Part shown: positions 1 through 13,972 of the stretch, piece after piece
Layout of the letters: each line of letters opens with the position of its first letter
Numbering within the stretch: position 1 is the stretch's first letter
Assembly: GCA_011050615.1 (NCBI GenBank)
Contig: DRFJ01000048.1
Location: forward strand, 1,216 to 65,215
Source of the DNA: Bacteroidota bacterium
Lineage (GTDB): Bacteria; Bacteroidota; Bacteroidia; Bacteroidales; VadinHA17
Direction: 5' to 3'
DNA length: 64,000 bases
Notes under the pieces: model-generated
Seen by the model: the letters and a program-made list of their open reading frames with translations, nothing else
Databases searched by the model: none
What the model was told of the DNA's origin: nothing
Position numbers and translations under genes: made by a program

Positions 1-79
1 CAATATAAAAGCTTACGGCTCCGAGGAGGAACCATATAAACCTGTTGGCGAAAATGATCTTAAGGTTATACCTTATCAT
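1..79 (-). CDS. First 26 codons of a further membrane protein (probable ABC-2-type permease), cut by the window edge
   Basis: Minus-strand ATG at 79-77, 31 nt after the stop of the fusion gene. Translates MIRYNLKIIFANRFIWFLLGAVSFYI..., a short basic N-terminus followed by a hydrophobic helix, the same layout as the N-terminus of the 1140-aa permease starting at 13972. Too short for the ORF track. Confidence 0.35.
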   Translation of the reverse strand, partial: MIRYNLKIIFANRFIWFLLGAVSFYI

Positions 80-110
80 TTTCACCACTATATCGGCCAG
101 GTTAGCTATA

Positions 111-3100
111 TTAGTTATTCTGCTCATTATATATTTCACTTTTACTCTTTCTCAGCAGCCAGAGGTAGGAATCCTCAAGGTTGGGCTTTACCTCCCTTGC
201 CTGCTCATGCGGTTTATTCAGGGATATGCATCTCACCCTTATGCTTCCTTTTTCTGACATATGGTGTACCACCATGTTCTCCGAGGCAAATTTCCTGAAT
301 TCAGCTGCGGGAATGTTAAACTGCCATACCCTGCCCTCGGCTTCTTTAGTCATTTGTCCGGGGTGACCCAGGTATTTGAGATAGCCCTTATCAAGCACAG
401 CCACCTTGTTACATGAGCTCGATATGTCTTCGATTATATGAGTTGAAAATATTACCACCCGTTCCCGGCTCAGTTCCACCAGGAGGTTTCTGAACCTTAT
501 TCTTTCCCTGGGGTCGAGTCCTGCCGTCGGTTCGTCCACCACCAGTATGCGAGGCAAATGCAGCAATATCTGTGCAATACCGATTCTCTGCTTCATTCCA
601 CCTGAGTAGGATCCGATTTTTTCATCCTTGCGTTCATGCATATGCACTGCATTAAGGACATAATGTACCCGTTCATCCCTGGTTTTTTTGTCGGTAATAT
701 TTTTCAATATAGCCTGGTGCTGTAGGAATTCCCAGGCTGTCATGTTTTCATAGGTCCCGAATTCCTGGGGGAGGTAGCCGATAAGTCCCTGCAATTCCTC
801 ACGTTTTTCGGCAACATCAAGGCCATTAATCCATATCTTTCCATAGCTTTGATCGAGTATGCCGCAGATTATTCTCATCAATGTTGTTTTTCCCGCACCA
901 TTTGGCCCCAGTAATCCAAACATCCCATTTCCAATCTCCATTGATACTCCCCCCAGTGCCTTGAATGGTTTACGAACCTTGCCTATGAGGGGAGTGGAAA
1001 GAACCAGTTTGTAATAAGCCTTCCTCAGATTCCTGAATCTTCCTTTCAGCCTGTAGATATCGGTAGCTTTTTCATTGAGAGATCTGCCTGTTGACCATAT
1101 CATAAGGCCCGCATACCATAGAAAACCCACAACAATGACTGCAGCAATATTATTCCATTTGGCCTGGAAGATAATCAGATTGGCAAAGGGGATAAGCCAG
1201 TAGACAGCTATATTCAGTATTTTTTTCAGGAAGGGGGGCAAGGTTTTCTTATCCCTCAGTATCGAATAAAGCGGATCCCAGATAAGGATTATCATAAACC
1301 AGCTGACAAGGCTGAAGAAGAATATCCAGAAGCCTTTCTGTAAATATATATATGTGAAATAAAGTAAGAAGCCCAGCAGTGGTATTTGCCAGATATACTG
1401 TTGTAAATCGCGTATTGATTGAGGTTTTGTATCAAGTCCCAGCCTGCTTCTGATTTTCTTTCCTGCTTTCCATTCCCTGATCATCCTTGGATCACGGTCA
1501 TATATTTTAACAAGGCTCCTGATAACTATATTTACCGGCTCGTCTTCGGCTATAACTGTTTCTCGTGCTTTCCTGAGGCTTGTCCTGATAAACCAGGTCA
1601 CTGCCGGCACAAGTATGATTACAAGTATGGTGCTTATAAGCTGCCACAGGAACTTGTTAATATAAAGGTATATCATTGTCACAAGAAAAACAGAAACGAT
1701 GAGCATTACTGTTTTTATCTTCCAGTTCTGTGACCTTATCCATGATATTGAATTTTCAAGTCCGGTATAAAAAGTAGGAATAAAGACCAGTGTAAGCATC
1801 GTACTGAGGGCAAGTCCGCCAATAACAGTTATTGCAAATGAGGCCCCTATTATGGATGCATATTCTGATTTTCCCATTGCCAGAGGCATTAATGCTACGA
1901 TAGTTGTAATTGCCGTAATAAGGATAGGCCTTACACGGGCCAGACCTGCCGTCATAAGAGCTCTTGACCTCCTGTAGCCTCTTTTCCTGAGTATATTTGA
2001 ATAATCGATAAGAATAATGCCATTATTGACCACCACGCCAAGCAGAATGAGAAAGCCGGTAAGTGTGTTGGCGTTTAGCAATGAATTGCCCGTAAGTATA
2101 AGTGCAATTAGTGAACCAAGTGCTGCCAGTGGTATTGAAAGCATGAGCACTACCGGTGTTGACAATGATTCAAAAACAGCAGCCAGTATCATAAAAATCA
2201 GCAGGAAGGCAATACCTATAAGGTAATAGAAGTCTTTTAACTGGTCCTCTTCATGTATAACTTCAATAGCTATACCCGAAGGAATATTCATTCCTGCAAT
2301 CAGCTGGTCTATTTCTTCCCTTGCACTTTCAAGCAAGGTCCTGGATGAAGTTATCTCATTATTAAACCTGTAGGTAATAGTAATACTCTTTTCCTGGTTT
2401 TCACGGTGGATATTACCCATGCCGTAGGAGAATACTATCGCGGCAATCTCTTCCATTTCAACAATGTTACCACTTGCACCGGATATCTGTAACCGTTTAA
2501 GGTCATCAATATTTTTATACTCTTCTTCCTCTTCCTCCGGCCTGTCGTATTTTATTATTATATCATATTCCTCCTCGCCCTGTTTGAATTTTACACCCGA
2601 TGAATATTCAGGTTGAAATGATGTCAGTTCCTGGGTAATATTATTCAGGCTGATATTATTCCTGCTCATCAGCTCAGTGTTGAAACTGAGCTGTACTTCG
2701 GGTGTATTGTCCTGGATATTAGCACTTACCGATCTGATGGTATTCAGGTCTTCCAGATAATATTCCATATCATCAGCCAGGTTTCTCATCTTGCCGAAGT
2801 CCTGGCCCTTGATTATTATGCTTTCAGACTCGGCACCTATGCCCAGCATACGGGTAAATCCCTCTCCCGGGTTAATCCCGCCGGCTCCACCGCCTCCTCC
2901 CATACCTGAGCCCGAGGAAATCTCACCCATAGTTATTTCAGCACCTCCGAAATTGTGTACCCGTTCGTAAATATCGTTTTTAATTTCAGCAAGTTCACGG
3001 TTACTTTCCTTATCCCAGTCTTCCTTCAGCTGGATTGTAAGGGAGGCCTGGTCTTCCTCAATCTTTGATATAATATCTCCTTTTTCGGGGAGGTTGTCGA

Positions 3101-4847
3101 GGCGTTTTTCAAGCTCGCTTACCAGTACATCTGTTTTTTCGAGGGTTGACCCGGCCGGCATAATAATGCTTACCGGGAAGCTTCCTGTTTCTATCTCTTC
3201 CAGGGTATTAATGCTTAATCCCAGGCTTATCAGCAGGGCGGCAAAAAAGACGACCAGGCTTCCAATAATAGTTGTAGCGGGACGGCGCATGCTGGCCTTC
3301 AGGATGAGAAGATAGGATTGTATCAGGCGGTCATGTATTGAGAGTTTTTTGAAGACCTGTGAATGACTCTTTTTGGACCATGAAAGCAGGTAATGTGTTG
3401 CCATGGGAATCAGCAGAAGGGCAACGGCCAGAGAAACCAGGAGGGTTGACACTATCGAAACTCCAATATTCTTACCTATAATTTTTACCAGGAAATTATC
3501 AGAGAATACAAAGGGAAGGAAGACTGTTATGGTAGTAAGTGTGGCTGCTATCACTGACCTGTACACTTCCTTAGTCCCTTTTTTCACTGCCTCGTCGGTA
3601 CCGGATCCACTTCCTGCGAGCCTGTAAATATTCTCGAGGACAACAACCGAATTGTCAATAAGCATACCTATGGCAAGGGCCATGCCTACCAGGGTAAGGC
3701 TGTTCACGGTTATGCCTGCTGCATAGAAGAAGTTAAAGGCTGTGAATACTGAAACAGGTATGGAAAAAGCAATGATGAAAACCAGTCTGAGATTTCTGAG
3801 GAAGAACCATAATATTACAACAGCAAGGAGTCCGCCCAGAAGGGCAAGGTTAATTATCTGGTCAATGTTCTTTTCCATAACCTCGGCGTTATTGTTCTGG
3901 ACAAGAACCTCCACACCTGAAGAAGCCAGTCGTTTGTTCAACTCATCTATGACTTCGAGGGTGTGATGGGAGAGATCGATGATATTAGCCTGGTTATCAT
4001 ATACCAGATTAATGGTTACCGCATCGAGGCCGTTTACCCGGCTGTACGACTCCTCCTCTTTTACACCGAAGAATATTTCTGCCACATCCTTTAGCAGTAC
4101 AGGTCCCTGGGGATTTACCACTATATTCCGGATATCAGTTACATTATCGAATTCAGCAGATATATTGACAAAAAATCTCTTATCTGATTCGTATACCAGT
4201 CCGGCGAACACCTTATCATTACTGTTTGAAGAAATCAGGGATCTGACCCTGTTCATTGTTATGCCATTTGCCTTGCAGGCTTCCTCATCCAGTCTTATTT
4301 CTATTGAGCTTTCCCTTCCTCCGAAGACTTCCACCCCTGCAATACCATCTATATTCTCAAGTTCAGGTTTGATTTCCCTGTCGGCTATATCCCTTATCCT
4401 GTCGACTCCTCCGCTGCCCCTGACCTGCAGGTCCATAAACCGGCTGTTGAGCTGTTCAAGGTCTATCCTTATTATATTCACAACAAATTCTTCAGGAAGG
4501 CTTGCTGACAACACATTCACTTTTTCCTGTAACTTGAGATAGGAGTATTTAAGATCGGCATTCTGGCTGTAATAGATCATTACCATACCATAGCGGGATG
4601 TAACTGTTGATTCTATCTTCTCCACGTCTTCAAGTGTCCCGACAGCTCCTTCAACGGGTATTATTGCCTGGTTTTCAATATATGAGGGGTCAACATCAAG
4701 GACTGAACTCACCTGGACGATAAGAGTGGGTAATTGTGCATTGGGATAAAGCTCAACCTGTAGTTGCTGATATGATACATAACCAAGAAGCGAGAGCCCT
4801 ATAAAGAGCATGCTTATGAGAGTCTTTCTTTTGATTATAAATTCCAT
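111..4847 (-). CDS. RND (AcrB/HAE1-like) efflux permease fused via six extra TM helices to an ABC-transporter ATP-binding domain
   Basis: Single uninterrupted 1578-codon ORF. aa 1-~1035 is a 12-TM RND permease with two large periplasmic loops. aa ~1043-1088 are two extra hydrophobic helices. aa ~1105-1118 (VNIVIRSLVKIYDR) is an ABC beta-1-like strand. aa ~1152-1252 are four more hydrophobic helices. aa ~1295-1578 is an ABC ATPase: Walker A GPNGAGKTT (nt 882-908), Q-loop YLPQE, signature YSGGMKQR, Walker B ILVVDEPTAGLD, H-loop STHI. Confidence 0.9.
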   Translation of the reverse strand: MEFIIKRKTLISMLFIGLSLLGYVSYQQLQVELYPNAQLPTLIVQVSSVLDVDPSYIENQAIIPVEGAVGTLEDVEKIESTVTSRYGMVMIYYSQNADLKYSYLKLQEKVNVLSASLPEEFVVNIIRIDLEQLNSRFMDLQVRGSGGVDRIRDIADREIKPELENIDGIAGVEVFGGRESSIEIRLDEEACKANGITMNRVRSLISSNSNDKVFAGLVYESDKRFFVNISAEFDNVTDIRNIVVNPQGPVLLKDVAEIFFGVKEEESYSRVNGLDAVTINLVYDNQANIIDLSHHTLEVIDELNKRLASSGVEVLVQNNNAEVMEKNIDQIINLALLGGLLAVVILWFFLRNLRLVFIIAFSIPVSVFTAFNFFYAAGITVNSLTLVGMALAIGMLIDNSVVVLENIYRLAGSGSGTDEAVKKGTKEVYRSVIAATLTTITVFLPFVFSDNFLVKIIGKNIGVSIVSTLLVSLAVALLLIPMATHYLLSWSKKSHSQVFKKLSIHDRLIQSYLLILKASMRRPATTIIGSLVVFFAALLISLGLSINTLEEIETGSFPVSIIMPAGSTLEKTDVLVSELEKRLDNLPEKGDIISKIEEDQASLTIQLKEDWDKESNRELAEIKNDIYERVHNFGGAEITMGEISSGSGMGGGGGAGGINPGEGFTRMLGIGAESESIIIKGQDFGKMRNLADDMEYYLEDLNTIRSVSANIQDNTPEVQLSFNTELMSRNNISLNNITQELTSFQPEYSSGVKFKQGEEEYDIIIKYDRPEEEEEEYKNIDDLKRLQISGASGNIVEMEEIAAIVFSYGMGNIHRENQEKSITITYRFNNEITSSRTLLESAREEIDQLIAGMNIPSGIAIEVIHEEDQLKDFYYLIGIAFLLIFMILAAVFESLSTPVVLMLSIPLAALGSLIALILTGNSLLNANTLTGFLILLGVVVNNGIILIDYSNILRKRGYRRSRALMTAGLARVRPILITAITTIVALMPLAMGKSEYASIIGASFAITVIGGLALSTMLTLVFIPTFYTGLENSISWIRSQNWKIKTVMLIVSVFLVTMIYLYINKFLWQLISTILVIILVPAVTWFIRTSLRKARETVIAEDEPVNIVIRSLVKIYDRDPRMIREWKAGKKIRSRLGLDTKPQSIRDLQQYIWQIPLLGFLLYFTYIYLQKGFWIFFFSLVSWFMIILIWDPLYSILRDKKTLPPFLKKILNIAVYWLIPFANLIIFQAKWNNIAAVIVVGFLWYAGLMIWSTGRSLNEKATDIYRLKGRFRNLRKAYYKLVLSTPLIGKVRKPFKALGGVSMEIGNGMFGLLGPNGAGKTTLMRIICGILDQSYGKIWINGLDVAEKREELQGLIGYLPQEFGTYENMTAWEFLQHQAILKNITDKKTRDERVHYVLNAVHMHERKDEKIGSYSGGMKQRIGIAQILLHLPRILVVDEPTAGLDPRERIRFRNLLVELSRERVVIFSTHIIEDISSSCNKVAVLDKGYLKYLGHPGQMTKEAEGRVWQFNIPAAEFRKFASENMVVHHMSEKGSIRVRCISLNKPHEQAREVKPNLEDSYLWLLRKSKSEIYNEQNN

Positions 4848-4853: not shown

Positions 4854-7800
4854 CTACCTGGCTTGCGTAATAAGGCTTTGTTTCTTTCCTCCCACCATGT
4901 CCTTCAGGGCATCCAGTACCCAGTATACACAGGGAATAACCACAAGGGTCAATATGGTAGACGTTACAAGTCCGCCTATCACTGCCAGGGCCATCGGCGA
5001 CCTGAGGGAGGCACTTTCGCCAAAGCCGAATGTCAGAGGTAAGAGTGCCAGTATTGTGGTAATACTGGTCATTACTATAGGTCTGATCCTTTGACCTCCT
5101 GCTTCTATTATTGCCTGACGTCTGCTTAAGCCCTCTGCCCGGAGCTGGTTGATCCTGTCAATCAGGATAATGGAATCATTTACGGCAATGCCCGCCAGCA
5201 TTATAATTCCAATATATGCCATGATATTGAGCGTTTTGCCAAGGAGGAAGAATATCCATACTGAACCGACTGCGGCAAGGGGAATTGTAAGCAATATAAC
5301 AAAGGGATGGATGAGTGATTCAAACTGTGAAGCCAGCACCATATAAACAAGGATGATTGAAAGGATGAGGGCAAAAGTCAGGTTTTTCATTGATTCTTTA
5401 CGCTTAAGTTCCTCTCCGGTGATAATGGTACGGTAGTCTGCCGGCAGACTAATACCTGCCAGTGTCTTTTCAGTATTCCTGACTATATGGTCAAAAGGAA
5501 CCTCCTTATCGGCCATCGCATATACATAGCTTGTTCTTACCTGGTTATTCCTGCTAATTTCACGTGGTGCACTTACTTTTTTTATATCTGCCAGTTCACT
5601 GAGCGGCACCGATACCGAGCCGGCCTTTATCAAAAGGTTTTGCAGGCTCTTCAGTGGTAATTCTTCCAGTTTAATGGTTATATCCTTCAACTCACCACCC
5701 TGCTCAAAGTCGCCCGCTTTTATCCCGGTGAGGTAAGACTGCACCTGTGAGATTATGCTTTCCACACTCACACTGTAATGACTTGCCTTGTAACGGTCAA
5801 TTACTATATCAACCTCTGGAGTTCCTTCGTCCAGTGAGCTGGTGATATTATAAAGGTTTTCTGATTCTGCGAGCCGGGCCTTTACTTCTTCTGTCAGGTC
5901 CCGGATAATGTCAAGATCCTCACCCCTTATTTCAATTACCAGGGGAGCCTTATCCGTTCCAAGAGTTGTTTGCAGGGATGTTTCTTCCCTTTTAAAACTG
6001 ATTTCAATGTACTTCATGGAAGAAAATTTTTCCTGCAGCAGGAGGATGGCTTCATCGGAACGGGCTGCATATTCATCACTAAGAAACACTCTTATCACAG
6101 AAGTGTTTTCGTCCCTGAACAGGTCTGATTCGCCTGAACCCGTTGTGGTTGTAAAACCGGAATGGCTGTACAGCATCTCGACCCTGTCTCCAAGAAGTTC
6201 CCTTGTGATATTTTCCATCTTCCGCGTTGTTTCTGCTGTACGTTCAAGCATCGTACCTTCCGGCATTTTCATCTCGATGGTAAATTCTGATGATTCTGCC
6301 CCGGGCATAAATTCACTGCCCACTTTTGGAAGAATATAGGCCGTAGCAGCCAGCAATATTAAGGCAAGAATTATTACCGGTCCCTTGCGGGCTATTATTT
6401 TTTCCAGCCAGGAGGAATACCATCTGAAGCTTACTGCCCTTTCTTTCCTTTTTGTTTTTCTGTCTTTAAAGAAGGTTGTCACGAGCAGTGGTATTACCAG
6501 TATGGCAACAAAGAGGGACGACAGGAGGGAAAATGCCACTGTCCACGCCTGGTCTTTGAACAATTCACCGGAAGCACCCTGGAGATATACAATTGGAAGA
6601 AACACAACTATTGTAGTTATTGTTGAGGCTGTTATGGCTCCTCCCACCTGGGCTGTCCCTTCAATGGCAGCTTCCCTGAGGGACATCCCCGATTCATAAT
6701 TACGGAATATATTTTCCAGGACGACTATAGCATTATCAACCAGCATCCCGGCTCCGAGGGCCAGTCCCCCGAGGGTCATTATATTTATTGTAAGGTTATT
6801 GAAATACATGAGGTTGAAGGTTGCGATAATTGAAATGGGTATCGCAATGCTCACAACAAGGGTTGTTCCTATGCGGCGCAGGAAAATAAAGAGTACGAAT
6901 ACAGCCAGTATTATACCAAAAAGGGCAGTTTTTTCCACTTCATTGATAGCCCGGTCAATAAACTGGCCCTGGTCCTGGACAATAATAAATTCATAACCGG
7001 GCAAAGCCTTCTTCAGTATCTCAATGGCTTCTGTCAGTTCCTCCACGGCATTAACGGTATTATAGCGGGGCTCTTTATAAACTGACAAGCCCACACATCG
7101 TTCGCCGTTGACGGTTACAATGTTTTCCGGATCCTTATTTGCAATGTAAATATCTGCAACATCGCTGAGGTAAACCGGTATTCTCTCAGCCGCATCCAGA
7201 GTTTCTGCGGTGCTTCCTGCCTGTGATCCTTCTGCAATTTCCCTGAAGCCTATTATAATGTGTTTAAGATCATCGGCCTCTTCTATAACACTGACTCCTT
7301 TAACAACATACCGGGTTCCCAGGTCGGTAATTGAGCCGCCCGACACATTGCGGTTATAGCTGTTTATCTGCTGGGCAATGTCGGAGGTTGACATATCATA
7401 TGCCTGGAGCAGGTATTCATTTGTTTCTATCACTACTTCACCCTCTTCATGACCGGAAAGCTGTATGTCGGCTATACCTTCCAGCCGGATAAGCTCATTG
7501 CGTATGTAATTTTCCGCTGTCTGTCGCAATTCATCCATATTGCTTATCCTGTCATGTTTCAGGGCTATGATCATTACGGGGGTGGCATTGGGATTGTACT
7601 GAGTTATATTGAACTCATCAAGATCTGCATTCTGGCTGAATGAACTTATATCTTTCTGCAGGTCGAGAAAGGCTTCGTCCATATCCTTGTTCCAGGCATA
7701 TTCAACAATTACCTGGGCAGTACCCACCATCGAAACAGATGAAACATTAATTGCATCCTTCTGTCGCATTGCTATTGATTCAACCTGGTCAACAAATTGT

Positions 7801-7985
7801 TTTTCCATCTCTTCGGGCGGTCGCTCACCGGCCTGCAGTTCAATATAGATTTTCGGATTATTCAGGTCGGGGAACAGGTCTGTTCCCAGCTTGCCAAAGG
7901 AAATTATTCCAAGCAGGATTATGCCCAGTACCAGCATAAGTATAGTTACCGGATTTTCAACTGCAAATCGGACTATTTTTTTCAT
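4854..7985 (-). CDS. RND family efflux transporter permease (AcrB/HAE1-like), stand-alone
   Basis: 1043 aa. N-terminus MKKIVRFAVENPVTILMLVLGIILLG is typical. 12 predicted TM helices with two large periplasmic loops. Conserved TM4 region GGLALGAGMLVDNAIVVLENI. Starts 12 nt after the MFP gene. Confidence 0.92.
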   Translation of the reverse strand: MKKIVRFAVENPVTILMLVLGIILLGIISFGKLGTDLFPDLNNPKIYIELQAGERPPEEMEKQFVDQVESIAMRQKDAINVSSVSMVGTAQVIVEYAWNKDMDEAFLDLQKDISSFSQNADLDEFNITQYNPNATPVMIIALKHDRISNMDELRQTAENYIRNELIRLEGIADIQLSGHEEGEVVIETNEYLLQAYDMSTSDIAQQINSYNRNVSGGSITDLGTRYVVKGVSVIEEADDLKHIIIGFREIAEGSQAGSTAETLDAAERIPVYLSDVADIYIANKDPENIVTVNGERCVGLSVYKEPRYNTVNAVEELTEAIEILKKALPGYEFIIVQDQGQFIDRAINEVEKTALFGIILAVFVLFIFLRRIGTTLVVSIAIPISIIATFNLMYFNNLTINIMTLGGLALGAGMLVDNAIVVLENIFRNYESGMSLREAAIEGTAQVGGAITASTITTIVVFLPIVYLQGASGELFKDQAWTVAFSLLSSLFVAILVIPLLVTTFFKDRKTKRKERAVSFRWYSSWLEKIIARKGPVIILALILLAATAYILPKVGSEFMPGAESSEFTIEMKMPEGTMLERTAETTRKMENITRELLGDRVEMLYSHSGFTTTTGSGESDLFRDENTSVIRVFLSDEYAARSDEAILLLQEKFSSMKYIEISFKREETSLQTTLGTDKAPLVIEIRGEDLDIIRDLTEEVKARLAESENLYNITSSLDEGTPEVDIVIDRYKASHYSVSVESIISQVQSYLTGIKAGDFEQGGELKDITIKLEELPLKSLQNLLIKAGSVSVPLSELADIKKVSAPREISRNNQVRTSYVYAMADKEVPFDHIVRNTEKTLAGISLPADYRTIITGEELKRKESMKNLTFALILSIILVYMVLASQFESLIHPFVILLTIPLAAVGSVWIFFLLGKTLNIMAYIGIIMLAGIAVNDSIILIDRINQLRAEGLSRRQAIIEAGGQRIRPIVMTSITTILALLPLTFGFGESASLRSPMALAVIGGLVTSTILTLVVIPCVYWVLDALKDMVGGKKQSLITQAR

Positions 7986-7997
7986 TTTTCGGGATGC

Positions 7998-9050
7998 TTA
8001 TTTCAGTATTTTTACCTTGGCATTATGGCTGAGCGTTTCAAAGCCGTCAGTAACGACTCTTTCATTGGTGTTCAATCCCCTTATCACTTCAACCTCTTTG
8101 TTGTTTTCTAGTCCGGTGGCGATTATGCGTTCATTGGCAACACCCCTGTTTACAATGAAAACGGTCATTCCTCTTTGCCTTGACAGGATAATATCTTTAG
8201 GTATTACAATAACCGAGTCGGCACGGTGGGTAATTATATCAGCCTTAACAAACATCCCCGGCCTGAGTTTTAGCTCCGGGTTGTTTATTTCAATGCTCCC
8301 CCGGAAAGTTCTTGTCTGTGCATTTATTGCAGGTGACAATTGAGTAATCTTACCCTTCAGGGTGTCTCCGGGAAGGGCATAATTAGTTATTCTGACAGTC
8401 TGCCCGGTGCGGATATCATTTATATATTTTTCAGGGAGGTTAATATCCAGAAGCATGGACTTGTAATCCATAATGCCTGCAACCTTGGTTCCTGACTGTA
8501 TTTCTGAGCCCTGGGTATAATATGGCAATTCGGTAATAAACCCGTCAAAGGGAGATGTGATTTTCATCTTTTCGATTTGAAGGCGTGCATTTTCGACTGT
8601 AATCTGGGCGTTGATATAATCATAGCCAGCCTGCTTCAATTCATTAAGTGTAACACCCCCCTTTTCATATAATGACTCCTGTTTTTCAAGATTACTCTTT
8701 GCGAGTTCAAGATTAAGCTCATAGAGTTCCAGCTTAATATTATTTTCATATTCTTCATCTTCGAGGCGGACAATTAATGAACCTTTTCTAAGCCTGTCAC
8801 CAAGCTGCCATTGCCTTCCTGTTTCCGCGTTATTTTCCAGGTAGTACCTGGCGGCTATCTCAGCCACAAGTTCAACATCCACCACAGGATAGACAGTGCC
8901 TGTAGTGCTTACAAATTCTTCAATTGATTTGAGTTTTATGTCTTCTACTGAAACAGGAATTTCAACGTCAGCCTCCAGACCGGCATCCTGGTTATTGCAT
9001 CCTGCGAATAGGAAGGAGAAGAATAAAAGATATATCAGTCTTATTTTCAT
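7998..9050 (-). CDS. Efflux RND periplasmic adaptor subunit (membrane fusion protein, HlyD/AcrA-like) lipoprotein
   Basis: 350 aa. Signal peptide with lipobox FLFAGC, a coiled-coil hairpin segment (NIKLELYELNLELAKSNLEKQESLYEKGGVTLNELKQA), and barrel-sandwich/beta-barrel C-terminal part. Lies between OMF and RND genes. Confidence 0.85.
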   Translation of the reverse strand: MKIRLIYLLFFSFLFAGCNNQDAGLEADVEIPVSVEDIKLKSIEEFVSTTGTVYPVVDVELVAEIAARYYLENNAETGRQWQLGDRLRKGSLIVRLEDEEYENNIKLELYELNLELAKSNLEKQESLYEKGGVTLNELKQAGYDYINAQITVENARLQIEKMKITSPFDGFITELPYYTQGSEIQSGTKVAGIMDYKSMLLDINLPEKYINDIRTGQTVRITNYALPGDTLKGKITQLSPAINAQTRTFRGSIEINNPELKLRPGMFVKADIITHRADSVIVIPKDIILSRQRGMTVFIVNRGVANERIIATGLENNKEVEVIRGLNTNERVVTDGFETLSHNAKVKILK

Positions 9051-9071: not shown

Positions 9072-10538
9072 TTATTGTTGTTCAAGTATCTTTATAGGTG
9101 TTACTGCTTCCTTCTTTTCAAAATCATAAAGGGTTTGTATTTTGAGATTAAGTAATTCCAGTTTATATGATATTATTGCATTGGTAAGAGACAGTTGTTT
9201 TTCAGATAGCTGGTTCTGGTAGATATTAAGATCCATACCTGTAAGGTCGCCGTTCTCATATTTTTCAAGGTTAAGCTCATAGGTCAGTTGTGCATTTTTG
9301 ACATTCTGCCTTGCTATTTCAATCTGGTTTTTAAGATTGGTCAGATTCCTGTATACTTTTCTTATGTTAATTATTATATTGTTTTCTTCCTCTTCATAGC
9401 CTATCATCTGTGATTCGATTGAAGCTTCGGCGGCTTTTATCCTTGATTTACGCTCACCCCAGTCCCACAGGGGTATGGAAAAAGATACGGATACCTGCTG
9501 GTTGTCGGTTGGACTTGCATATATATCGGTAAAATTTTCATTATCACCGAACAAGCCGACCGAGAGGTTAAGGTCGCCCCGAAATTCATTGAGAGCCTTG
9601 GTTTGTATAAGTGAAAATTCTGTATTCTCAATATCTATTTCCCTTTGCCTGAGTTCCATCCTGTTTGCCAGGCCATGATTAATGGCAAAGGTCACATCAA
9701 CATCAATTGTATCGACAGAAATATCGGGGATAACTATTATATCGTCATACAGGCTCATTCCGATCAGCAATTTGAAATCATCCTTGGCATCTTCGAGGCT
9801 TACCCTCTGGTTGTCAACATCAGAACTTGAGGTCGCGAGGTTGAGCTCAGCCTGGTAAAGTTCTTCCCTGGCTGATAATCCGGCATCAACTTTATTCCTG
9901 ATTATATCATAGCTTTTCGTCATATTCTGATAAGCCTCTTCTGCTATAATAAGGCTTTGCTGCTGCTGGTATACGAGATAGAAATACTGGGCTACCTGTC
10001 TTTCCAGTGAAAGCCTCTGTATGGCATAATTGAGCTGTGAATTTTCAAGAGCCAGTTCCAGTTCGCTTATCTGCAGCTTTGTCCTGTTATATGTAAACAG
10101 GGGCTGGTTTATGTTGAGGGACAGGTTATTACTAAATCCTTTGGTGCGCGAGTCATTATACTCGCTGTAGGAGTTTTGCCACGAAAACCTGTTGTTCAAT
10201 GATATTGTGGCATCAGTGGCAACTATGGGTTGAGATATTCTGAAGGTGCCGAAACTGCGTGTTGTTTCACGGGTATTCCATCTTGAAACAAGATCGTTGA
10301 ATTCCCTGTTGTGGGTATACTCAAAAGGGTTTACCGAAAGAGAGAACTGGGATTTGAGAGCAGCCCTCTGGGCATTGAGGTTTTCCCTGCTTCTGACAAG
10401 ATTAAGCCTTGTTCTCTTTATTGAAGGGCTGTTTTCTTCGGCTATATCCAGTGCCATTTCCAGGGTGAGGCCCTGCTGCGCTGTTACATTAAGAGCAAAA
10501 TTAAGGACTACCGGTAATAATAATATTAACTTCTTCAT
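9072..10538 (-). CDS. TolC-family outer membrane efflux protein
   Basis: 488 aa. Signal peptide MKKLILLLPVVLNFALNVTAQ, then LTLEMALDIAEENSPSIK typical of the OMF N-terminus. Two internal repeats rich in coiled-coil-forming Q/L/N/E. Confidence 0.85.
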   Translation of the reverse strand: MKKLILLLPVVLNFALNVTAQQGLTLEMALDIAEENSPSIKRTRLNLVRSRENLNAQRAALKSQFSLSVNPFEYTHNREFNDLVSRWNTRETTRSFGTFRISQPIVATDATISLNNRFSWQNSYSEYNDSRTKGFSNNLSLNINQPLFTYNRTKLQISELELALENSQLNYAIQRLSLERQVAQYFYLVYQQQQSLIIAEEAYQNMTKSYDIIRNKVDAGLSAREELYQAELNLATSSSDVDNQRVSLEDAKDDFKLLIGMSLYDDIIVIPDISVDTIDVDVTFAINHGLANRMELRQREIDIENTEFSLIQTKALNEFRGDLNLSVGLFGDNENFTDIYASPTDNQQVSVSFSIPLWDWGERKSRIKAAEASIESQMIGYEEEENNIIINIRKVYRNLTNLKNQIEIARQNVKNAQLTYELNLEKYENGDLTGMDLNIYQNQLSEKQLSLTNAIISYKLELLNLKIQTLYDFEKKEAVTPIKILEQQ

Positions 10539-10549: not shown

Positions 10550-13500
10550 TTATTTAAGCGTATTCTGTCTTACCCATTTTACTGCATCTCCGGTAACTGT
10601 TCTTCCTTCTGACTGGTTTGTCATTATCACCCTTGCGGTGTCAGGTGAGAGATAATATGAACCCAGGTGATTCCATCCGTTTTCCGCGTTTTCCCAGTTT
10701 ACTGTCATTTCCTCGCTCCCATCATCATGCTCAACGCTGAAATGCAGGTCCTGCATTACATTCCTGCCTTCCCCGCCCCGCCCCATCATCATTCTTTGTC
10801 CGCCCCGCTTGCCTATAAAAGTATACACATCGTAGTATCCGGGCTCCGGGATACTGGCTGTCCAGCTTATATATCTTTCCCCGCTGCCGGCGCGTGTATA
10901 TACTGCTGACTTGACATATTTACCATAATAAATGCTCTCAACCGTCTTTTGCCAGTATTCCGGTGCCCACCATATGAACATTTCACGGTAATCATTACCA
11001 TTATCACGCCTGATATTCAGCCATTCTTTCAGTTTACCTGATGATGTTTCCTGGTAGATTCTGAATCCCGGATCTTCATTGTCAACAATTATTTCATTTT
11101 CCTCCTCCATGAGAGGTATTTTGTCAAGTATTATTTCCCCTTCGGTATTGTCATCTGTTTTGCCCTGCATAAGATCCATCAGTGGAAACTGCAGCTCACC
11201 GGGATTATTAATTGAAAAGAGTGTATTTACGAACATACCCCGTGGCTGGGCATCAAGTATCACACTTATTCTTTTGGCCTGGTTTGCTTCAAGCTTTACA
11301 ATTTTTTCCACATCATTGGTCTGCATACCCCTGCCTTCCATACCTATTGACATACTACCCCTTCCTGAGGCGCTTATGGTAATTGATACATTGCCCCCCA
11401 TGCCTCGTCCTCCACCTTGTCCCGGCCTACCGGTACGGAAGCCGACATTGAAAATGCCGGGTGTCTTTTCAGGATTGGATGCAGTAAAACTTACTTTGTA
11501 CCTGGTGCGGTTTCCTACAACTATTTCGTTAACTATAATATCAGTAAAAAGAAAACCCGGCTGCCCTTTACCATTATACCATTGATCAAGGTAGCTCTTG
11601 AGGTCGAAGCCGAACCTTTCGCCGAGATCGCTGTTAAATTCATCTATACTGACATTCCTGAATTTTTTCTTTTCGAGGTATGATGAAAACCAGTTGTTAA
11701 ACTCTTCCATCCCGGCCTCCGCACGAAGGAGGTTAAACAGGTAATCACCTTTTAATGTGAGTATAAGTCTTGTAGTGTCTGTCGACGGGTTAAGGGCGAG
11801 TATTTCCTTCAGGCTGTGATCCTTGAGGATGGTATTTGCCCTGTCATTCTCACTGAGTCCTCCCAGAAGCATCCTCTGGAATCCTCTCTGAGGCGTTTCC
11901 ACTTTCTGAAGGTGTGTTTCAAAAACAGCATTGATAACAGGATATTCATCGGAATAGAAATTATTCTTGTAAAAATAGAAACTGGGTCCCAGCAAATATC
12001 TTCCCGGGGTCATAGAAGTGTTTCCCCTGTTAAATCGGAAACCGGAGCTGGTGATGAAGGTATTTCTGACAAAATTATTAAAAGCCCTGACCTGGAGTTC
12101 CCTGTCGGTTATTACCTCGTTATTCCTTTCCATCCTTCTTTTTTGCCTCTTTATTGTACCGTGGAAGCCGGCATCATTTATTGTAGCCAGCTTTTCTGGC
12201 AAGAGTATAAGTGAAGGCTGAACTTCAGCCCTTGTCTGGGTATTTTTTCTTTCTATCGAGTGAAAATAAACCGGCACTTCCACGAGACTCAGGCTGTTAA
12301 AGGGATATTCAGTGCTAAAATTTGTTTCGAGCTCTGTCATAATCCCTGATATGAGGTTACCGAGGGTGTCACTCAGTTCATTCAGATCCTTCCTGAAGTA
12401 GTCGTGTCCCCTGTAGTAATGTGCTATAAAGCCGGTTGAATCAACTGTAATGGTATCGCTGATATAATTACCTTCTATTAGACTGATTCCGGTCAGAGGC
12501 ACCTCATTCTTGAAATACCAGTAATCATTGTCAGATGATCTTACTCCCTGTGATACAGCAACAAGTTTATTGTTTCTGGCAACCTTTAATGTATAATATG
12601 TAAAGTCAATGAGGATCCTTGCCGGATTGCCCGGATAAAAGTTGAGCCCTGCTACGGGGTACCAGTGAGTTTCAGGTGTCAGCAAGAGAAAATTGTCTTT
12701 TTGAATAGCCTGTCTTTTTTCAACCCTGACGGGCCCAATGGTGAACGGATCCTTCTTTATATCTTCCGTATGCCAGGGATAGCAGTAAGCCTCTTCTACC
12801 AGGCCCTCATAGGTGAAACTAATACTTAAAGATGAATCGGGTTCAAGGGCTTTCCCGAGATCAACAATAATTATATGGCCATCGCCTGTAAATGAAGCAG
12901 GCGAACCATTTACGTCAATCTTTCTGACCGCCAGTCCGGGGTTTAATGAAAAGGGAGATTCACTGAGCGGCCTTCCCGTGTTATTTACACAATTTAATGT
13001 TGCCAGGGCAGTGATAGAACGCTTTGAATAATCAATTTCAATATCTGCCTCCGTAACTTTAAGGAAATCGCTGCTTTCGTATTTCCTGTTGGTTTCTGTT
13101 ATGGAAGTTTTAAGGTTTTGGGTCCTGTAATAATCATCCAGGAAATAATATGCTGTGAAAGCGGTAATGGCTAAAAATATAATCAGGGAGACAGAGCTTA
13201 TGATCCTGTGTGTTCTTGATTGTGGCAGCCTTTTAAATATAAGTATTGTTGCGAAAATAAAAACAAGACCCAGGGCTGTATACATAATTCTCTGGGCAAG
13301 AATCAAATCTAAATTACTGAATCCCGTTATATTGCTTTTAAAGACAGGAAATCCAAAGAGCATATAGTCGAAAAATGAATTCATCCTGTTATAGAGATAG
13401 AACATATCAAGTGCCGCAAGGCCCAGCAGCAGGAGGAAGGTGATTGCCTGGTTGCGGATGATGGACATCAATATATAGGCAAAGCCAAGGCTGAAGATCA

Positions 13501-13972
13501 ATGTCGGGATAGTGATTATAAAAATATATTCAATATAAGCAGCTGCATCTATACTTGCCTGTTTAGATATTATGTTAATTATGAGGCAGATGATAAGGAT
13601 TAATATATTTACGCCCAGGAAAAGCCTCAGTATGCCAAGTGATTTTCCGAATATATACTCCATGTTTGACATCGGCCTTGTATAAAGAACCTCATTTGTA
13701 TCCAGCTTTTTATCTCTTTTAAGGAAGTCTGATGCCAGAAATATTACTATAAGAGCCTGGGCAATATTAATTATGTAAAGGTTAAACAGTGGCAGGGATG
13801 AAGGGATGGCAAGGAAGGACCAGTCTTCATCTCCCACGGGGCTGAAAATCCCGATATTCATTATTGAAAGGATAAACAGTGCTCCAAATGAGAACAACCT
13901 GAAAAGCCAGCTGCGGCGTAATGTTTTAGCCTCATAGTGGGCAACAGTTCTGATATTGTGAATGGAAATCAT
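10550..13972 (-). CDS. ABC-2-type permease (about 7 TM) fused to a large periplasmic M1-aminopeptidase-like domain without HExxH and a golvesin-C-terminal-like domain
   Basis: 1140 aa. aa 1-~285 hold about 7 hydrophobic helices. The ectodomain carries M1-like landmarks (THWYPVAG...FTYYTLKVARNNKLVAVSQG; ...SYLDQWYNGKGQPGF). No HE dipeptide occurs anywhere, so no HExxH zinc site. The C-terminus ...ENGWNHLGSYYLSPDTARVIMTNQSEGRTVTGDAVKWV resembles golvesin/Xly C-terminal-like carbohydrate-binding domains. Start codon lies 1 nt after the ATPase stop. Confidence 0.75.
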   Translation of the reverse strand: MISIHNIRTVAHYEAKTLRRSWLFRLFSFGALFILSIMNIGIFSPVGDEDWSFLAIPSSLPLFNLYIINIAQALIVIFLASDFLKRDKKLDTNEVLYTRPMSNMEYIFGKSLGILRLFLGVNILILIICLIINIISKQASIDAAAYIEYIFIITIPTLIFSLGFAYILMSIIRNQAITFLLLLGLAALDMFYLYNRMNSFFDYMLFGFPVFKSNITGFSNLDLILAQRIMYTALGLVFIFATILIFKRLPQSRTHRIISSVSLIIFLAITAFTAYYFLDDYYRTQNLKTSITETNRKYESSDFLKVTEADIEIDYSKRSITALATLNCVNNTGRPLSESPFSLNPGLAVRKIDVNGSPASFTGDGHIIIVDLGKALEPDSSLSISFTYEGLVEEAYCYPWHTEDIKKDPFTIGPVRVEKRQAIQKDNFLLLTPETHWYPVAGLNFYPGNPARILIDFTYYTLKVARNNKLVAVSQGVRSSDNDYWYFKNEVPLTGISLIEGNYISDTITVDSTGFIAHYYRGHDYFRKDLNELSDTLGNLISGIMTELETNFSTEYPFNSLSLVEVPVYFHSIERKNTQTRAEVQPSLILLPEKLATINDAGFHGTIKRQKRRMERNNEVITDRELQVRAFNNFVRNTFITSSGFRFNRGNTSMTPGRYLLGPSFYFYKNNFYSDEYPVINAVFETHLQKVETPQRGFQRMLLGGLSENDRANTILKDHSLKEILALNPSTDTTRLILTLKGDYLFNLLRAEAGMEEFNNWFSSYLEKKKFRNVSIDEFNSDLGERFGFDLKSYLDQWYNGKGQPGFLFTDIIVNEIVVGNRTRYKVSFTASNPEKTPGIFNVGFRTGRPGQGGGRGMGGNVSITISASGRGSMSIGMEGRGMQTNDVEKIVKLEANQAKRISVILDAQPRGMFVNTLFSINNPGELQFPLMDLMQGKTDDNTEGEIILDKIPLMEEENEIIVDNEDPGFRIYQETSSGKLKEWLNIRRDNGNDYREMFIWWAPEYWQKTVESIYYGKYVKSAVYTRAGSGERYISWTASIPEPGYYDVYTFIGKRGGQRMMMGRGGEGRNVMQDLHFSVEHDDGSEEMTVNWENAENGWNHLGSYYLSPDTARVIMTNQSEGRTVTGDAVKWVRQNTLK

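What the first reader, a model, noticed from the sequence alone, without database searches (positions are those of the whole stretch)
111..4847. A complete RND efflux permease is translationally fused to an ABC-transporter ATPase
**What the sequence shows.** One uninterrupted 1578-codon ORF carries the following regions:
- aa 1-~1035: a full 12-TM AcrB-type RND permease.
- aa ~1043-1088: two additional hydrophobic helices.
- aa ~1105-1118: an ABC beta-1-like strand.
- aa ~1152-1252: four more hydrophobic helices.
- aa ~1295-1578: a complete ABC nucleotide-binding domain with every catalytic motif intact (Walker A GPNGAGKTT, Q-loop YLPQE, signature YSGGMKQR, Walker B ILVVDEPTAGLD, H-loop STHI), plus the C-terminal accessory domain seen in the stand-alone paralogue at 13974-14879.

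The even number of added helices (2, then 4) keeps the nucleotide-binding domain on the cytoplasmic side, so the topology is self-consistent.

**Why it matters.** RND pumps are driven by proton-motive force and ABC domains by ATP. I do not know of a characterised protein that joins the two.

**Possible roles (inference).** The fusion could provide dual energisation, ATP-dependent gating of an RND pump, or physical tethering of an ABC transporter to a tripartite efflux complex.
Basis: partly seen in the sequence, partly recalled or inferred. Interest (0 to 1): 0.88.

Follow-up and report, generated by a model that had tools for sequence, protein, structure and literature searches.

The report
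Conserved RND pump fused to ABC ATPase
One 1578-residue protein really does join a complete proton-type (RND) efflux pump subunit to a complete ATP-driven (ABC) motor domain; the fusion is conserved with six partner genes in about a hundred Bacteroidales-type species, and I found no study of it in four searches of an incomplete paper library.

Summary
ORF 111-4847 encodes, in order:
- a full ACR_tran RND permease;
- two extra transmembrane (TM) helices;
- the first beta-strand and A-loop tyrosine of an ABC nucleotide-binding domain (NBD);
- a roughly 175-residue insert with four TM helices;
- the rest of a catalytically intact ABC-2/ABCA-like NBD, with a C-terminal accessory domain.

It is not an assembly artefact. 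More than 118 full-length homologues exist (66-100% identity), and 97 species genomes encode the linker, including cultured Draconibacterium and Parabacteroides isolates.

The fusion is gene 6 of a conserved 7-gene operon: ABC ATPase, a 1140-aa ABC-2-like permease with an inactive M1-peptidase-like domain, outer-membrane factor, adaptor, a second RND permease, the fusion, and a small 6-TM ABC-2-like permease. The small permease's start codon overlaps the fusion's stop, and its gene runs off the window.

My best reading (about 0.5) is that the fused NBD powers the small permease, giving a conventional ABC-2 module physically tethered to a heteromeric RND tripartite pump. Direct ATP drive or gating of the RND remains possible (about 0.15).

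Four literature searches found no description of it. Novelty: a new variant of a known kind. Interest: 0.72.

The parts
111..4847 (-). Whole RND::linker::ABC-NBD fusion gene (1578 aa plus stop)
   Evidence: ORF list and translation. Both Pfam domains lie in one chain. At least 118 full-length homologues carry both domains.
1743..4847 (-). RND permease domain, aa 1-1035 (12 TM helices, ACR_tran)
   Evidence: ACR_tran covers aa 2-1028 at 553 bits. The match to AdeB, MdtB, ZneA and AcrB structures runs full length. Relay residues are D398, N399, N941, N942, R973 and T978, invariant in 118/118 homologues.
1563..1727 (-). Two extra TM helices (TM13 and TM14, aa about 1041-1095) that return the chain to the cytoplasm
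   Evidence: Hydropathy peaks. AF2 helices at 1042-1062 and 1066-1095. Conserved in the divergent alignment A1.
1491..1535 (-). NBD beta-strand 1 with the putative A-loop tyrosine (aa 1105-1119, VNIVIRSLVKIYDRD; Y1116)
   Evidence: AF2 strand at 1107-1116. L1112, V1113, K1114, I1115 and Y1116 are invariant in 118/118. The segment aligns to the paralogue's N-terminus. The splice test extends the GldA profile match to position 3. That Y1116 is the A-loop aromatic residue is my inference from its position at the end of beta1.
972..1490 (-). Insert of about 175 aa inside the NBD's beta1-beta2 hairpin (aa 1120-1292): cytoplasmic helices with a conserved REW motif, four TM helices and a return helix
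   Evidence: AF2 helices at 1121-1135, 1145-1151, 1154-1168, 1172-1199, 1205-1231, 1234-1260 and 1272-1284. No Pfam family matches. In an exhaustive search of 1.84 billion representatives the linker (aa 1036-1300) gave 100 hits, and every complete one is a fusion of about 1550-1590 aa.
333..971 (-). ABC NBD core (aa 1293-1505): Walker A 1314-1322, Q-loop 1358-1362, signature 1414-1421, Walker B/D-loop 1434-1445, H-loop 1468-1471
   Evidence: ABC_tran at 99.9 bits. Motifs invariant or nearly so. The best NCBIfam matches are DrrA and GldA, both below cutoff. The closest solved relatives are ABCA3/4/1/7 NBDs, TM_1403 and NosF.
114..332 (-). C-terminal accessory domain of the NBD (aa about 1506-1578)
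   Evidence: AF2 gives beta-strands from 1507 and a terminal helix. The Foldseek alignment to TM_1403 spans 274 of 285 target residues. The domain is shared with the paralogue as far as LEDSYLWLL / LEHAYVYYM.
1..127 (-). 5' end of the small 6-TM ABC-2-like permease gene (first 42 codons; the rest lies beyond the window's start). Its ATG at 127-125 overlaps the fusion's last codons by 17 nt
   Evidence: Translation MSRITNIANLADIVVKMIRYNLKIIFANRFIWFLLGAVSFYI matches the 238-240-aa downstream proteins in L001 and L002. There is a weak ABC2_membrane_2 hit, E 0.0045. A match to it lies downstream of the fusion in nearly all loci that extend that far. The gap from fusion stop to permease ATG is -26 to +13 nt in 57 of 77 loci.
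4854..7985 (-). RND1, an unfused paralogous RND permease (1043 aa) 6 nt upstream of the fusion
   Evidence: ACR_tran at 707 bits. About 27% identical to the fusion's RND domain. Always adjacent.
7998..9050 (-). Periplasmic adaptor (membrane fusion protein), 350 aa
   Evidence: TIGR01730 RND_mfp at 201 bits, above its cutoff of 94.9. HlyD_D23 match.
9072..10538 (-). TolC-like outer-membrane factor, 488 aa
   Evidence: Pfam OEP at 168 bits.
10550..13972 (-). Large ABC-2/NosY-like permease (about 7 N-terminal TM helices) fused to an M1-aminopeptidase-like domain without HEXXH and to a Golvesin_C domain, 1140 aa
   Evidence: Golvesin_C at 48 bits, with weak Peptidase_M1 and ABC2_membrane_4 hits. 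TM scan. No HEXXH. AF2 mean pLDDT 66.8 and Foldseek matches to the M1 fold at E about 1e-13. JGI names it 'multi-copper enzyme maturation permease subunit'.
13974..14879 (-). Stand-alone ABC ATPase (301 aa), paralogue of the fused NBD
   Evidence: ABC_tran at 114.6 bits. 39% identical to the fused NBD. Canonical motifs are visible in the translation.

Best explanation
The gene encodes a real, conserved hybrid subunit of a composite envelope-spanning export machine.

**RND half (inferred role).** The N-terminal 1035 residues form an AcrB-type RND permease. By analogy with MdtB2C, it most likely assembles with the adjacent paralogue RND1 into a heteromeric RND trimer that works with the operon's adaptor and TolC-like channel.

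**Tether and ATPase (anatomy shown, role inferred).** The C-terminal 540 residues are a membrane-pinned ABC-2/ABCA-type ATPase.
- Two TM helices bring the chain back to the cytoplasm.
- The NBD's first strand follows.
- A four-helix TM bundle is inserted into the NBD's beta1-beta2 hairpin as a second membrane anchor.
- The rest of a catalytically competent NBD then follows.

**What the ATPase drives (inferred).** I infer that the NBD hydrolyses ATP to drive the small 6-TM ABC-2-like permease encoded immediately downstream and translationally coupled to it. It may do so as a heterodimer with the operon's other pair, the stand-alone ATPase and the 1140-aa permease. The fusion then keeps an ABC-2 transporter at fixed stoichiometry and position next to the RND pump. 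The ABC module could feed substrate from the cytoplasm or inner leaflet to the RND/adaptor/outer-membrane channel, or both could share that channel.

A 2:1 or 1:2 RND2:RND1 trimer would reconcile a trimeric RND with NBDs that work in pairs.

**Shown:** the anatomy, intact catalytic motifs, conservation and gene neighbourhood.
**Inferred:** the partnerships, the stoichiometry, the direction of transport and the substrate. The substrate is unknown. ABCA-like NBDs and the conserved lipid A operon next door hint at a lipidic or envelope molecule.
For: **The fusion is real and under selection.**
- At least 118 full-length homologues at 66-100% identity carry both domains.
- The frame is open across the junction in 44 of 50 species loci, including isolates Draconibacterium orientale DSM 25947 and Parabacteroides sp. 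PF5-6.
- The NBD is the best conserved part (79-91% mean identity to the window protein per 50-residue block across aa 1301-1500, against 47-63% for the linker), and its catalytic motifs are invariant or nearly so.

**The NBD belongs to the ABC-2/ABCA class, which uses separate 6-TM permeases.**
- NCBIfam best matches are DrrA and GldA.
- The closest solved relatives by sequence or fold are TM_1403, NosF and ABCA NBDs.

**A cognate-looking permease lies immediately downstream.**
- It is 234-243 aa with 6 hydrophobic segments, a weak ABC2_membrane_2 hit and an ABC-2-like motif after TM2.
- Its start overlaps the fusion's stop by 17 nt in the window. The gap is -26 to +13 nt in 57 of 77 loci.
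- This reproduces the ATPase-then-permease gene order also seen for the operon's other ABC pair.

**The linker does not look like a transport domain of its own.**
- It has no Pfam family.
- Its cytoplasmic loop between TM helices is only about 5 residues, so I see no coupling helix (inference).
- It is the least conserved part.
- No stand-alone version was found.

**The neighbourhood is fixed.**
- The order large permease, outer-membrane factor, adaptor, RND1, fusion, small permease holds across about 80 species loci, wherever the flank is long enough, except L043.
- The upstream ATPase was visible in all five related loci long enough to show it.

**Precedent.** E. coli MdtABC uses an MdtB2C1 heterotrimer encoded by two adjacent RND genes (PMC7015380).
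Against: - No physical interaction, stoichiometry or transport activity was tested.
- The small permease's assignment to ABC-2 rests on weak scores (E 0.0045 in one of five orthologues scanned; hhalign E 0.13).
- If tethering alone were the purpose, a simple linker would do. A conserved four-TM insertion inside the NBD, next to the putative A-loop, suggests more specific coupling, which this model leaves unexplained.
- Three NBDs on an RND2 homotrimer would be mismatched with NBD dimers. The heterotrimer solution is an assumption.
- Both RNDs have a non-canonical proton relay, so how the RND half is energised is itself uncertain.
Confidence: 0.5

Rival explanations
1. ATP-driven or ATP-gated RND pump. 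NBD dimerisation and hydrolysis are transmitted through TM13/14 and the four-helix insert directly to the RND transmembrane domain. ATP either replaces or supplements proton-motive force, or acts as a gate that switches the pump on only when the cell is energised.
For: - The fusion is covalent and conserved, and the NBD is pinned to the membrane at two points next to the RND's TM12.
- The RND relay lacks the AcrB D408 and K940 equivalents: it reads D398-N399 and N941-N942, invariant in 118/118.
- The NBD is the most conserved segment.
Against: - The same non-canonical relay (D-N; N-N or N-D; R) occurs in the unfused partner RND1 across the family, so it is a lineage trait and not a consequence of the fusion.
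- A conventional permease partner for the NBD is always encoded immediately downstream.
- I see no coupling-helix-like element in the linker (inference).
- RND trimers and NBD dimers are mismatched in symmetry.
- I know of no precedent for an NBD driving a non-ABC transmembrane domain of this kind (my knowledge, not a tool result).
Confidence: 0.15
2. Self-contained half ABC exporter appended to an RND. The six linker TM helices plus the NBD form a TMD-NBD half-transporter that homodimerises between two fusion subunits and transports on its own. The downstream small membrane protein is only an accessory.
For: - Six TM helices followed by an NBD is the helix count and order of classic half-transporters.
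- The AF2 model of the region is confident (pLDDT 84.8).
Against: - The six helices are split 2 + 4 by the NBD's own first strand.
- Foldseek found no PDB match that aligns the TM part at a usable TM-score; only the NBD part matched well.
- The NBD belongs to the ABC-2/ABCA class, not the type IV exporter class.
- The linker is the least conserved segment.
Confidence: 0.1
3. Heterodimeric ABC variant of the main model. The fused NBD pairs with the stand-alone ATPase (13974-14879), and the small and large permeases form a heterodimeric membrane domain. A single RND2 per trimer then anchors one asymmetric ABC-2 transporter whose large M1-like and Golvesin_C periplasmic domain handles the substrate.
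For: - All seven genes travel together.
- The two NBDs are 39% identical paralogues sharing the same C-terminal domain.
- Both permeases carry an ABC-2-like motif after TM2.
Against: - Both NBDs have fully canonical motifs, so nothing marks an obligate asymmetric pair.
- The two permeases show only marginal profile similarity (hhalign E 0.13).
- Each ATPase is followed by its own permease, which fits two separate homodimeric transporters equally well.
Confidence: 0.15
4. Assembly or annotation artefact: two genes joined by a sequencing error.
For: One related Nanopore-type MAG (L065) has the RND and linker-NBD in different frames. That shows such junction errors occur, though there in the opposite direction.
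Against: - The open frame is continuous in 44 of 50 independent species genomes, including cultured isolates.
- At least 118 full-length homologues were retrieved from NCBI, JGI, ENA and Logan.
- In L065 the linker coding sequence continues upstream of the new ATG in the other frame, as expected of an indel error.
Confidence: 0.01

Closest known systems
MdtABC / MuxABC heteromeric RND pumps (E. coli MdtB2C1)
   Same: Two adjacent paralogous RND permease genes sit in one operon with a single adaptor. MdtB and MdtC are among the better NCBIfam and PDB matches. Heterotrimer precedent: PMC7015380.
   Different: Scores are far below the MdtB/MdtC equivalog cutoffs (260 and 247 bits against 1584 and 1774). 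RND1 and RND2 are only about 27% identical. One subunit carries a 540-residue TM-anchored ABC ATPase. The operon also encodes its own outer-membrane factor and two ABC-2-type permeases.
MacAB-TolC (ABC-driven tripartite efflux, type VII ABC)
   Same: An ABC ATPase is encoded alongside a periplasmic adaptor and a TolC-like outer-membrane channel.
   Different: By my knowledge of the solved MacB structures, MacB's NBD is N-terminal to a 4-TM domain with a large periplasmic domain, and there is no RND. Here the NBD is of the ABC-2/ABCA class. The isolated MacB NBD is only a mid-ranking fold match (rank 28). The membrane partner here is an RND plus 6-TM ABC-2-like permeases.
ABC-2 (type V-like) systems with separate ATPase and 6-TM permease: DrrAB, GldAFG, NosDFY, YbhGFSR; eukaryotic ABCA NBDs
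   Same: The NBD's best family matches are DrrA and GldA. The best solved relatives are TM_1403, NosF and ABCA3/4/1/7. There is a C-terminal accessory domain, and the gene order is ATPase then permease. By my recollection, YbhGFSR also uses an adaptor protein.
   Different: Scores are below the DrrA and GldA cutoffs (170 and 169 bits against 312 and 403). The NBD is covalently joined to an RND permease, and its beta1-beta2 hairpin carries a four-TM insertion. I do not know of either feature in any described ABC-2 system.
AcrB / AdeB / MexB (HAE-1 RND multidrug pumps)
   Same: Full-length ACR_tran homology, with 12 TM helices and two large periplasmic loops. The equivalents of D407, R971 and T978 are conserved.
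   Different: The D408 and K940 equivalents are both Asn. There is a C-terminal extension of 540 residues. The score is below the NCBIfam RND_permease subfamily cutoffs.

Membership tests
RND superfamily, AcrB/AcrD/AcrF type (Pfam ACR_tran) | Full-length match to the ACR_tran profile above the gathering score | tested here: met
   553 bits against a cutoff of 28; aa 2-1028 align to profile positions 3-1018 of 1021.
RND superfamily, AcrB/AcrD/AcrF type (Pfam ACR_tran) | 12 TM helices arranged 1+6 / 1+5... with two large periplasmic loops | tested here: met
   Hydropathy peaks fall at the expected positions: one at aa 3-21, a cluster at 327-550 and a cluster at 869-1030, with long polar stretches between them. 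The alignment to AdeB covers both halves.
HAE-1 multidrug RND (AcrB paradigm) | Proton-relay residues D407, D408, K940, R971 (AcrB numbering) | tested here: not met
   The equivalents are D398, N399, N941 and R973. The Asn residues are invariant in 118/118 homologues. The partner RND1 shows the same pattern. The protein is therefore not a canonical HAE-1 pump, and its coupling mechanism is undetermined.
NCBIfam RND_permease_2 (NF033617) / MdtB / MdtC equivalogs | Score above the curated cutoff | tested here: not met
   474 bits against 1250 (RND_permease_2), 260 against 1584 (MdtB/MuxB) and 247 against 1774 (MdtC).
ABC ATPase (Pfam ABC_tran) | Profile match above the gathering score, plus Walker A, Q-loop, signature, Walker B with catalytic Glu, D-loop and H-loop | tested here: met
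   99.9 bits against a cutoff of 25. Motifs GPNGAGKTT, YLPQE, YSGGMKQR, ILVVDEPTAGLD and STHI are invariant or nearly so in 118 homologues.
ABC ATPase (Pfam ABC_tran) | N-terminal beta-strand with the A-loop aromatic residue contiguous with the rest of the domain | tested here: not met
   The strand and Y1116 are present. They are separated from the rest of the NBD by an insert of about 175 residues containing four TM helices. The fold element is kept but contiguity is not.
DrrA (TIGR01188) / GldA (TIGR03522) ABC-2-type ATPases | Score above the curated cutoff | tested here: not met
   170 bits against 312 (DrrA) and 169 against 403 (GldA). These are the best-matching ATPase families, but the protein is not a member by NCBI's thresholds.
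ABC-2-type transporter (ATPase plus separate 6-TM permease) | A cognate ABC-2 family permease | tested here: inconclusive
   The downstream 234-243-aa protein has 6 hydrophobic segments and an ABC-2-like motif after TM2. Its only Pfam hit is below threshold (ABC2_membrane_2, E 0.0045, 16.7 bits against 27.2) and occurs in one of five orthologues scanned.
Heteromeric RND pump (MdtB2C-like) | Two different RND subunits in one trimer | not testable with these tools
   Only the adjacency of the two RND genes is shown. Assembly needs biochemistry or multimer modelling.
Tripartite efflux system | Inner-membrane transporter, periplasmic adaptor and outer-membrane factor encoded together | tested here: met
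   RND_mfp at 201 bits, above its cutoff of 94.9. OEP at 168 bits, above its cutoff of 22. The genes are separated by 6-21 nt, and their order is conserved.

The most novel reading that the evidence does not exclude
The fused NBD is mechanically coupled to the RND transmembrane domain through TM13/14 and the four-helix insert. ATP binding and hydrolysis would then drive or gate the RND transport cycle. This would be an RND pump energised or licensed by ATP rather than, or in addition to, the proton gradient, and the small permease would serve only as a stator or adaptor.
Probability: 0.12. Interest if true: 0.95.

Novelty: new variant of a known kind. Interest (0 to 1): 0.72.

Why it matters
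**Why a specialist would care.** RND pumps, driven by proton-motive force, and ABC transporters, driven by ATP, are treated as alternative engines for tripartite efflux. Here both engines sit in one polypeptide, in one operon with one adaptor and one outer-membrane channel, in a conserved family.

- If the ABC module feeds the RND pump, it would be a hard-wired example of the proposed cooperation between inner-membrane transporters and periplasm-capturing RND pumps.
- If the ATPase acts on the RND itself, it would overturn the assumption that RND transport is driven only by proton-motive force.

**A second unusual feature.** An NBD with a four-helix membrane anchor inserted next to what I take to be its A-loop is, to my knowledge, undescribed. 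That matters for ABC structural biology in its own right.

**It can be tested.** The family occurs in cultured Draconibacterium species and a Parabacteroides isolate, which opens the way to genetics and cryo-EM.

**A possible link to envelope biogenesis.** The operon sits divergently next to lpxD-lpxC/fabZ-lpxA in four genomes. That hints at a role in envelope lipid biogenesis in Bacteroidota rather than drug efflux.

Tried and rejected
1. **Assembly artefact: rejected.** The junction is open in 44 of 50 species loci, isolates included.
2. **Stand-alone linker-NBD ancestors: none found.**
   - P0149 (526 aa) sits 65 nt from the end of a 2.4-kb contig, so it is truncated.
   - L065 is split by a frameshift in a probable Nanopore MAG, and the linker coding sequence continues upstream in the other frame.
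   - The 13 short hits are fragments.
3. **Degenerate proton relay as evidence for ATP drive: rejected as fusion-specific.** RND1 orthologues share D-N / N-N(D) / R.
It was redone with 6 sequences.
It was redone with substrings of retrieved proteins.
6. **Fold search of the C-terminal model:** only the NBD part matched at a usable TM-score, so nothing informative was learnt about the TM part.
7. **Profile comparison of the small permease with the large permease's N-terminus:** marginal, E 0.13.
8. **M1 peptidase activity of the large permease: rejected.** There is no HEXXH or GxMEN motif, although the fold is M1-like.
9. **Literature:** four full-text searches for RND-ABC fusions found nothing relevant. 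The library is incomplete, so absence is not proof.
10. **Not attempted:** whether the lpx adjacency extends to distant members such as Draconibacterium. The 10-kb flanks are too short.


Full report
**1. The observation**

The window holds a 1578-codon ORF at 111..4847 with an ATG start and no internal stop.
- Pfam places a full-length ACR_tran match at aa 2-1028 (553 bits) and ABC_tran at aa 1301-1442 (99.9 bits) in the same chain.
- NCBIfam gives RND permease subfamilies for the first part. For the last part the best matches are the ABC-2-type ATPases DrrA and GldA. All of these are below the curated cutoffs.
- Hydropathy shows the RND's own TM clusters, then extra hydrophobic segments at about 1041-1064 and 1066-1092, and three more peaks at 1169-1252.
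- An AlphaFold2 model of aa 1030-1578, built on 25 family sequences, has mean pLDDT 84.8 and pTM 0.67. It gives:
  - helices at 1042-1062 and 1066-1095;
  - a beta-strand at 1107-1116;
  - short helices at 1121-1135 and 1145-1151;
  - four long helices at 1154-1168, 1172-1199, 1205-1231 and 1234-1260;
  - a helix at 1272-1284;
  - then a normal NBD and a C-terminal beta-rich domain.

**2. The NBD is split by a membrane insertion**

The stand-alone paralogue at 13974-14879 begins MKIEIRGLDVIYKNGNHAVKNINLTIAEGMFGLLGPNGAGKS. In the fusion, VNIVIRSLVKIYDRD (aa 1105-1119) corresponds to the first strand, and PFKALGGVSMEIGNGMFGLLGPNGAGKT (from aa about 1292) to the second.
- L1112, V1113, K1114, I1115 and Y1116 are invariant in 118 homologues.
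- I take Y1116 to be the A-loop aromatic residue, from its position at the end of beta1. That is inference.
- Joining aa 1103-1119 to aa 1290-1578 in silico extends the GldA-profile match from profile position 16 back to position 3 and adds 4.9 bits.

So about 175 residues, including four TM helices, are inserted in the beta1-beta2 hairpin of an otherwise complete NBD. I know of no described ABC protein with this feature. That statement rests on my own knowledge.

**3. The fusion is not an artefact, and it is a family**

- A full-length search returned at least 118 proteins longer than 1550 aa, at 66-100% identity, all carrying PF00873 and PF00005. They come from NCBI, JGI, ENA and Logan. JGI calls them 'multidrug efflux pump subunit AcrB/ABC-type multidrug transport system ATPase subunit'.
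- An exhaustive HMMER search of 1.84 billion cluster representatives with the linker alone (aa 1036-1300) found 100 hits. All complete ones are 1550-1590 aa with the linker at about 1030-1300, and identity falls as low as 25%.
- Short hits are fragments. A 526-aa hit lies at a contig end.
- A scan of one genome per GTDB species found 97 species encoding the linker:
  - many Bacteroidales MAGs, labelled Rikenellaceae (closest, 84%), Proteiniphilum, Fermentimonas, Tannerella, Mariniphaga and Marinifilaceae;
  - cultured Draconibacterium orientale DSM 25947, D. mangrovi, D. sediminis and Parabacteroides sp. PF5-6;
  - two MAGs labelled Latescibacterota and Krumholzibacteriia.
- In 44 of 50 loci examined the frame is open for at least 1005 codons upstream and 523-549 codons downstream of the start of the linker match. 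Four of the other six are cut by a contig end. L065 has a frameshift and L076 a shortened NBD.
- Mean identity to the window protein, per 50-residue block, is 79-91% across NBD aa 1301-1500. It is 47-63% in the linker and mostly 57-83% in the RND.

**4.

The fusion is the sixth gene of a tight minus-strand operon, with gaps of 1-21 nt. The genes are, in order:
1. ABC ATPase (301 aa).
2. A 1140-aa membrane protein.
3. A TolC-like outer-membrane factor.
4. An RND adaptor.
5. RND1 (1043 aa).
6. The fusion.
7. A seventh gene that starts at the ATG at 127-125 on the minus strand, overlaps the fusion's 3' end by 17 nt and runs off the window.

In related loci the seventh gene encodes a 234-243-aa protein with six hydrophobic segments. 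It has a sub-threshold ABC2_membrane_2 hit in one of five orthologues scanned, and an ABC-2-like motif after TM2. The distance from the fusion's stop to this gene's ATG is -26 to +13 nt in 57 of 77 loci.

The order large permease, outer-membrane factor, adaptor, RND1, fusion, small permease is kept wherever the flank is long enough, across about 80 species loci. L043 is the one exception. The upstream ATPase is seen in every longer locus.

The 1140-aa protein has these features:
- about seven N-terminal TM helices;
- an extracytoplasmic domain with an M1-aminopeptidase fold (Foldseek E about 1e-13, on a model of modest quality, pLDDT 66.8) but no HEXXH motif;
- a Golvesin_C domain;
- a JGI name as a NosY-type permease.

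**5. What kind of ATPase and what kind of RND**

The NBD:
- By sequence, its closest solved relatives are the NBDs of ABCA3, ABCA4, ABCA1 and ABCA7, then TM0544, TM_1403 and NosF.
- By fold, the closest are TM_1403, MetN, NosF, LptB and ABCA proteins. The TM_1403 alignment covers its C-terminal domain.
- The NBD is 39% identical to the operon's stand-alone ATPase.

The RND domain:
- It aligns end to end with AdeB, MdtB, ZneA, MexB and AcrB.
- At the AcrB proton-relay positions it has D398 (D407), N399 (D408), N941 (K940), R973 (R971) and T978. All are invariant.
- This looked at first like evidence for loss of proton coupling. However, RND1 orthologues carry the same D-N in TM4 and N-N or N-D in TM10. 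The deviation is therefore a trait of this RND lineage, not of the fusion. It cannot decide how the pump is energised.

**6. Mechanism**

Shown:
- one polypeptide contains a complete RND permease and a catalytically intact NBD anchored by six TM helices;
- that NBD is followed by a translationally coupled, ABC-2-like 6-TM permease;
- a second RND, one adaptor, one outer-membrane factor and a second ATPase/permease pair always accompany it.

Inferred, my best reading at confidence about 0.5: the NBD is the motor of an ABC-2-type transporter built with the small permease. It may form a heterodimer with the other ATPase/permease pair. The fusion holds this transporter against a heteromeric RND1/RND2 trimer, so that the two act on one pathway through the shared adaptor and channel. 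The MdtB2C1 precedent (PMC7015380) makes a 2:1 or 1:2 trimer plausible, and that would resolve the mismatch between a three-fold RND and pairwise NBDs.

The linker looks like an anchor rather than a translocation domain:
- it belongs to no known family;
- it has the lowest conservation;
- its cytoplasmic loop between TM helices is only about 5 residues, so I see no coupling helix (inference);
- no stand-alone form was found.

Not explained: why a four-helix bundle is inserted next to the putative A-loop when a plain tether would do. This keeps open the more radical reading, that ATP turnover is transmitted to, or sensed by, the RND (about 0.12-0.15).

**7. Substrate**

The substrate is unknown. 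Two hints point towards an envelope lipid or glycolipid rather than drugs. Both are weak.
- The NBD is ABCA/ABC-2-like.
- The operon is divergently adjacent to an HD-domain gene, lpxD, lpxC/fabZ and lpxA in the window and in three other genomes, where the large permease is 54-73% identical to the window's.

**8. Comparison and novelty**

The system resembles the following:
- MdtABC, in having two RND genes and one adaptor;
- MacAB-TolC, in having an ABC ATPase together with an adaptor and an outer-membrane factor;
- ABC-2 systems such as DrrAB, NosDFY, GldAFG and YbhGFSR, in NBD class and gene order.

It fails curated membership thresholds for MdtB/MdtC, RND_permease_2, DrrA and GldA. It also lacks two of the four canonical HAE-1 relay residues.

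Four full-text searches found no description of an RND-ABC fusion. The library is incomplete. Databases already hold many copies under generic names, so the sequence family is 'known' only to automatic annotation.

I rate it a new variant of a known kind, with interest 0.72. It is real, conserved, architecturally unprecedented as far as I can tell, and testable in cultured species. Its most exciting interpretation is not the best supported one.

Noticed in passing
window 15070-19692 (+ strand); L084 4310-8907, L085 4202-8807, L086 4292-8901: The operon is divergently adjacent to an HD-domain gene, lpxD, an lpxC/fabZ fusion and lpxA (lipid A biosynthesis), across an intergenic region of about 190 bp. 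The same arrangement occurs in three other genomes whose large permease is 54-73% identical to the window's. This may be a functional hint towards envelope lipids, or only retained synteny.
   Followed up: partly
window 10550-13972 (-): The 1140-aa ABC-2/NosY-like permease carries an extracytoplasmic M1-aminopeptidase-like fold without HEXXH or GxMEN motifs, which makes it a likely pseudo-peptidase. It also carries a C-terminal Golvesin_C domain. About 1180 homologues exist, and most that carry a name are called 'hypothetical protein'.
   Followed up: partly
window 1-127 (-): The small permease gene overlaps the fusion's 3' end by 17 nt and is cut by the window edge. Any annotation of this window alone would therefore miss the NBD's probable partner.
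   Followed up: yes
L065 6898-11599: In one MAG (MFD01299.bin.2.127) the RND (6898-10062) and linker-NBD (10085-11599) lie in different frames, and the linker coding sequence continues upstream of the new ATG. An indel error in a long-read assembly is the most likely cause, rather than a natural split.
   Followed up: partly
L076 10001-11365; L043 upstream of 6899: In L076 the frame ends 455 codons after the linker start, giving a shortened NBD. L043 shows no outer-membrane factor, adaptor or RND1 hits upstream of the fusion. The cause in both cases is unknown.
   Followed up: no
window 4854-7985 and 111-4847 (-); RND1 orthologues in L003-L082: Both RND paralogues across the family have Asn at the positions of AcrB D408 and K940. 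Some RND1 orthologues have Asp at the N941 position instead. This RND lineage may use a different proton-relay geometry.
   Followed up: partly
L002 22558-24728: A type II CRISPR-Cas locus (Cas2, Cas1 and a Cas9-like gene with HNH_4/RuvC_III) lies about 8 kb downstream of the operon in a related 4.27-Mb Bacteroidales chromosome. It is probably unrelated.
   Followed up: no
window 20806-22422 (-), 23963-25411 (+): A DUF4139/DUF4140 protein and SufB lie beyond the lpx genes. Both are also present at the same side in L084, and the DUF4139/DUF4140 protein is also present in L085 and L086.
   Followed up: no
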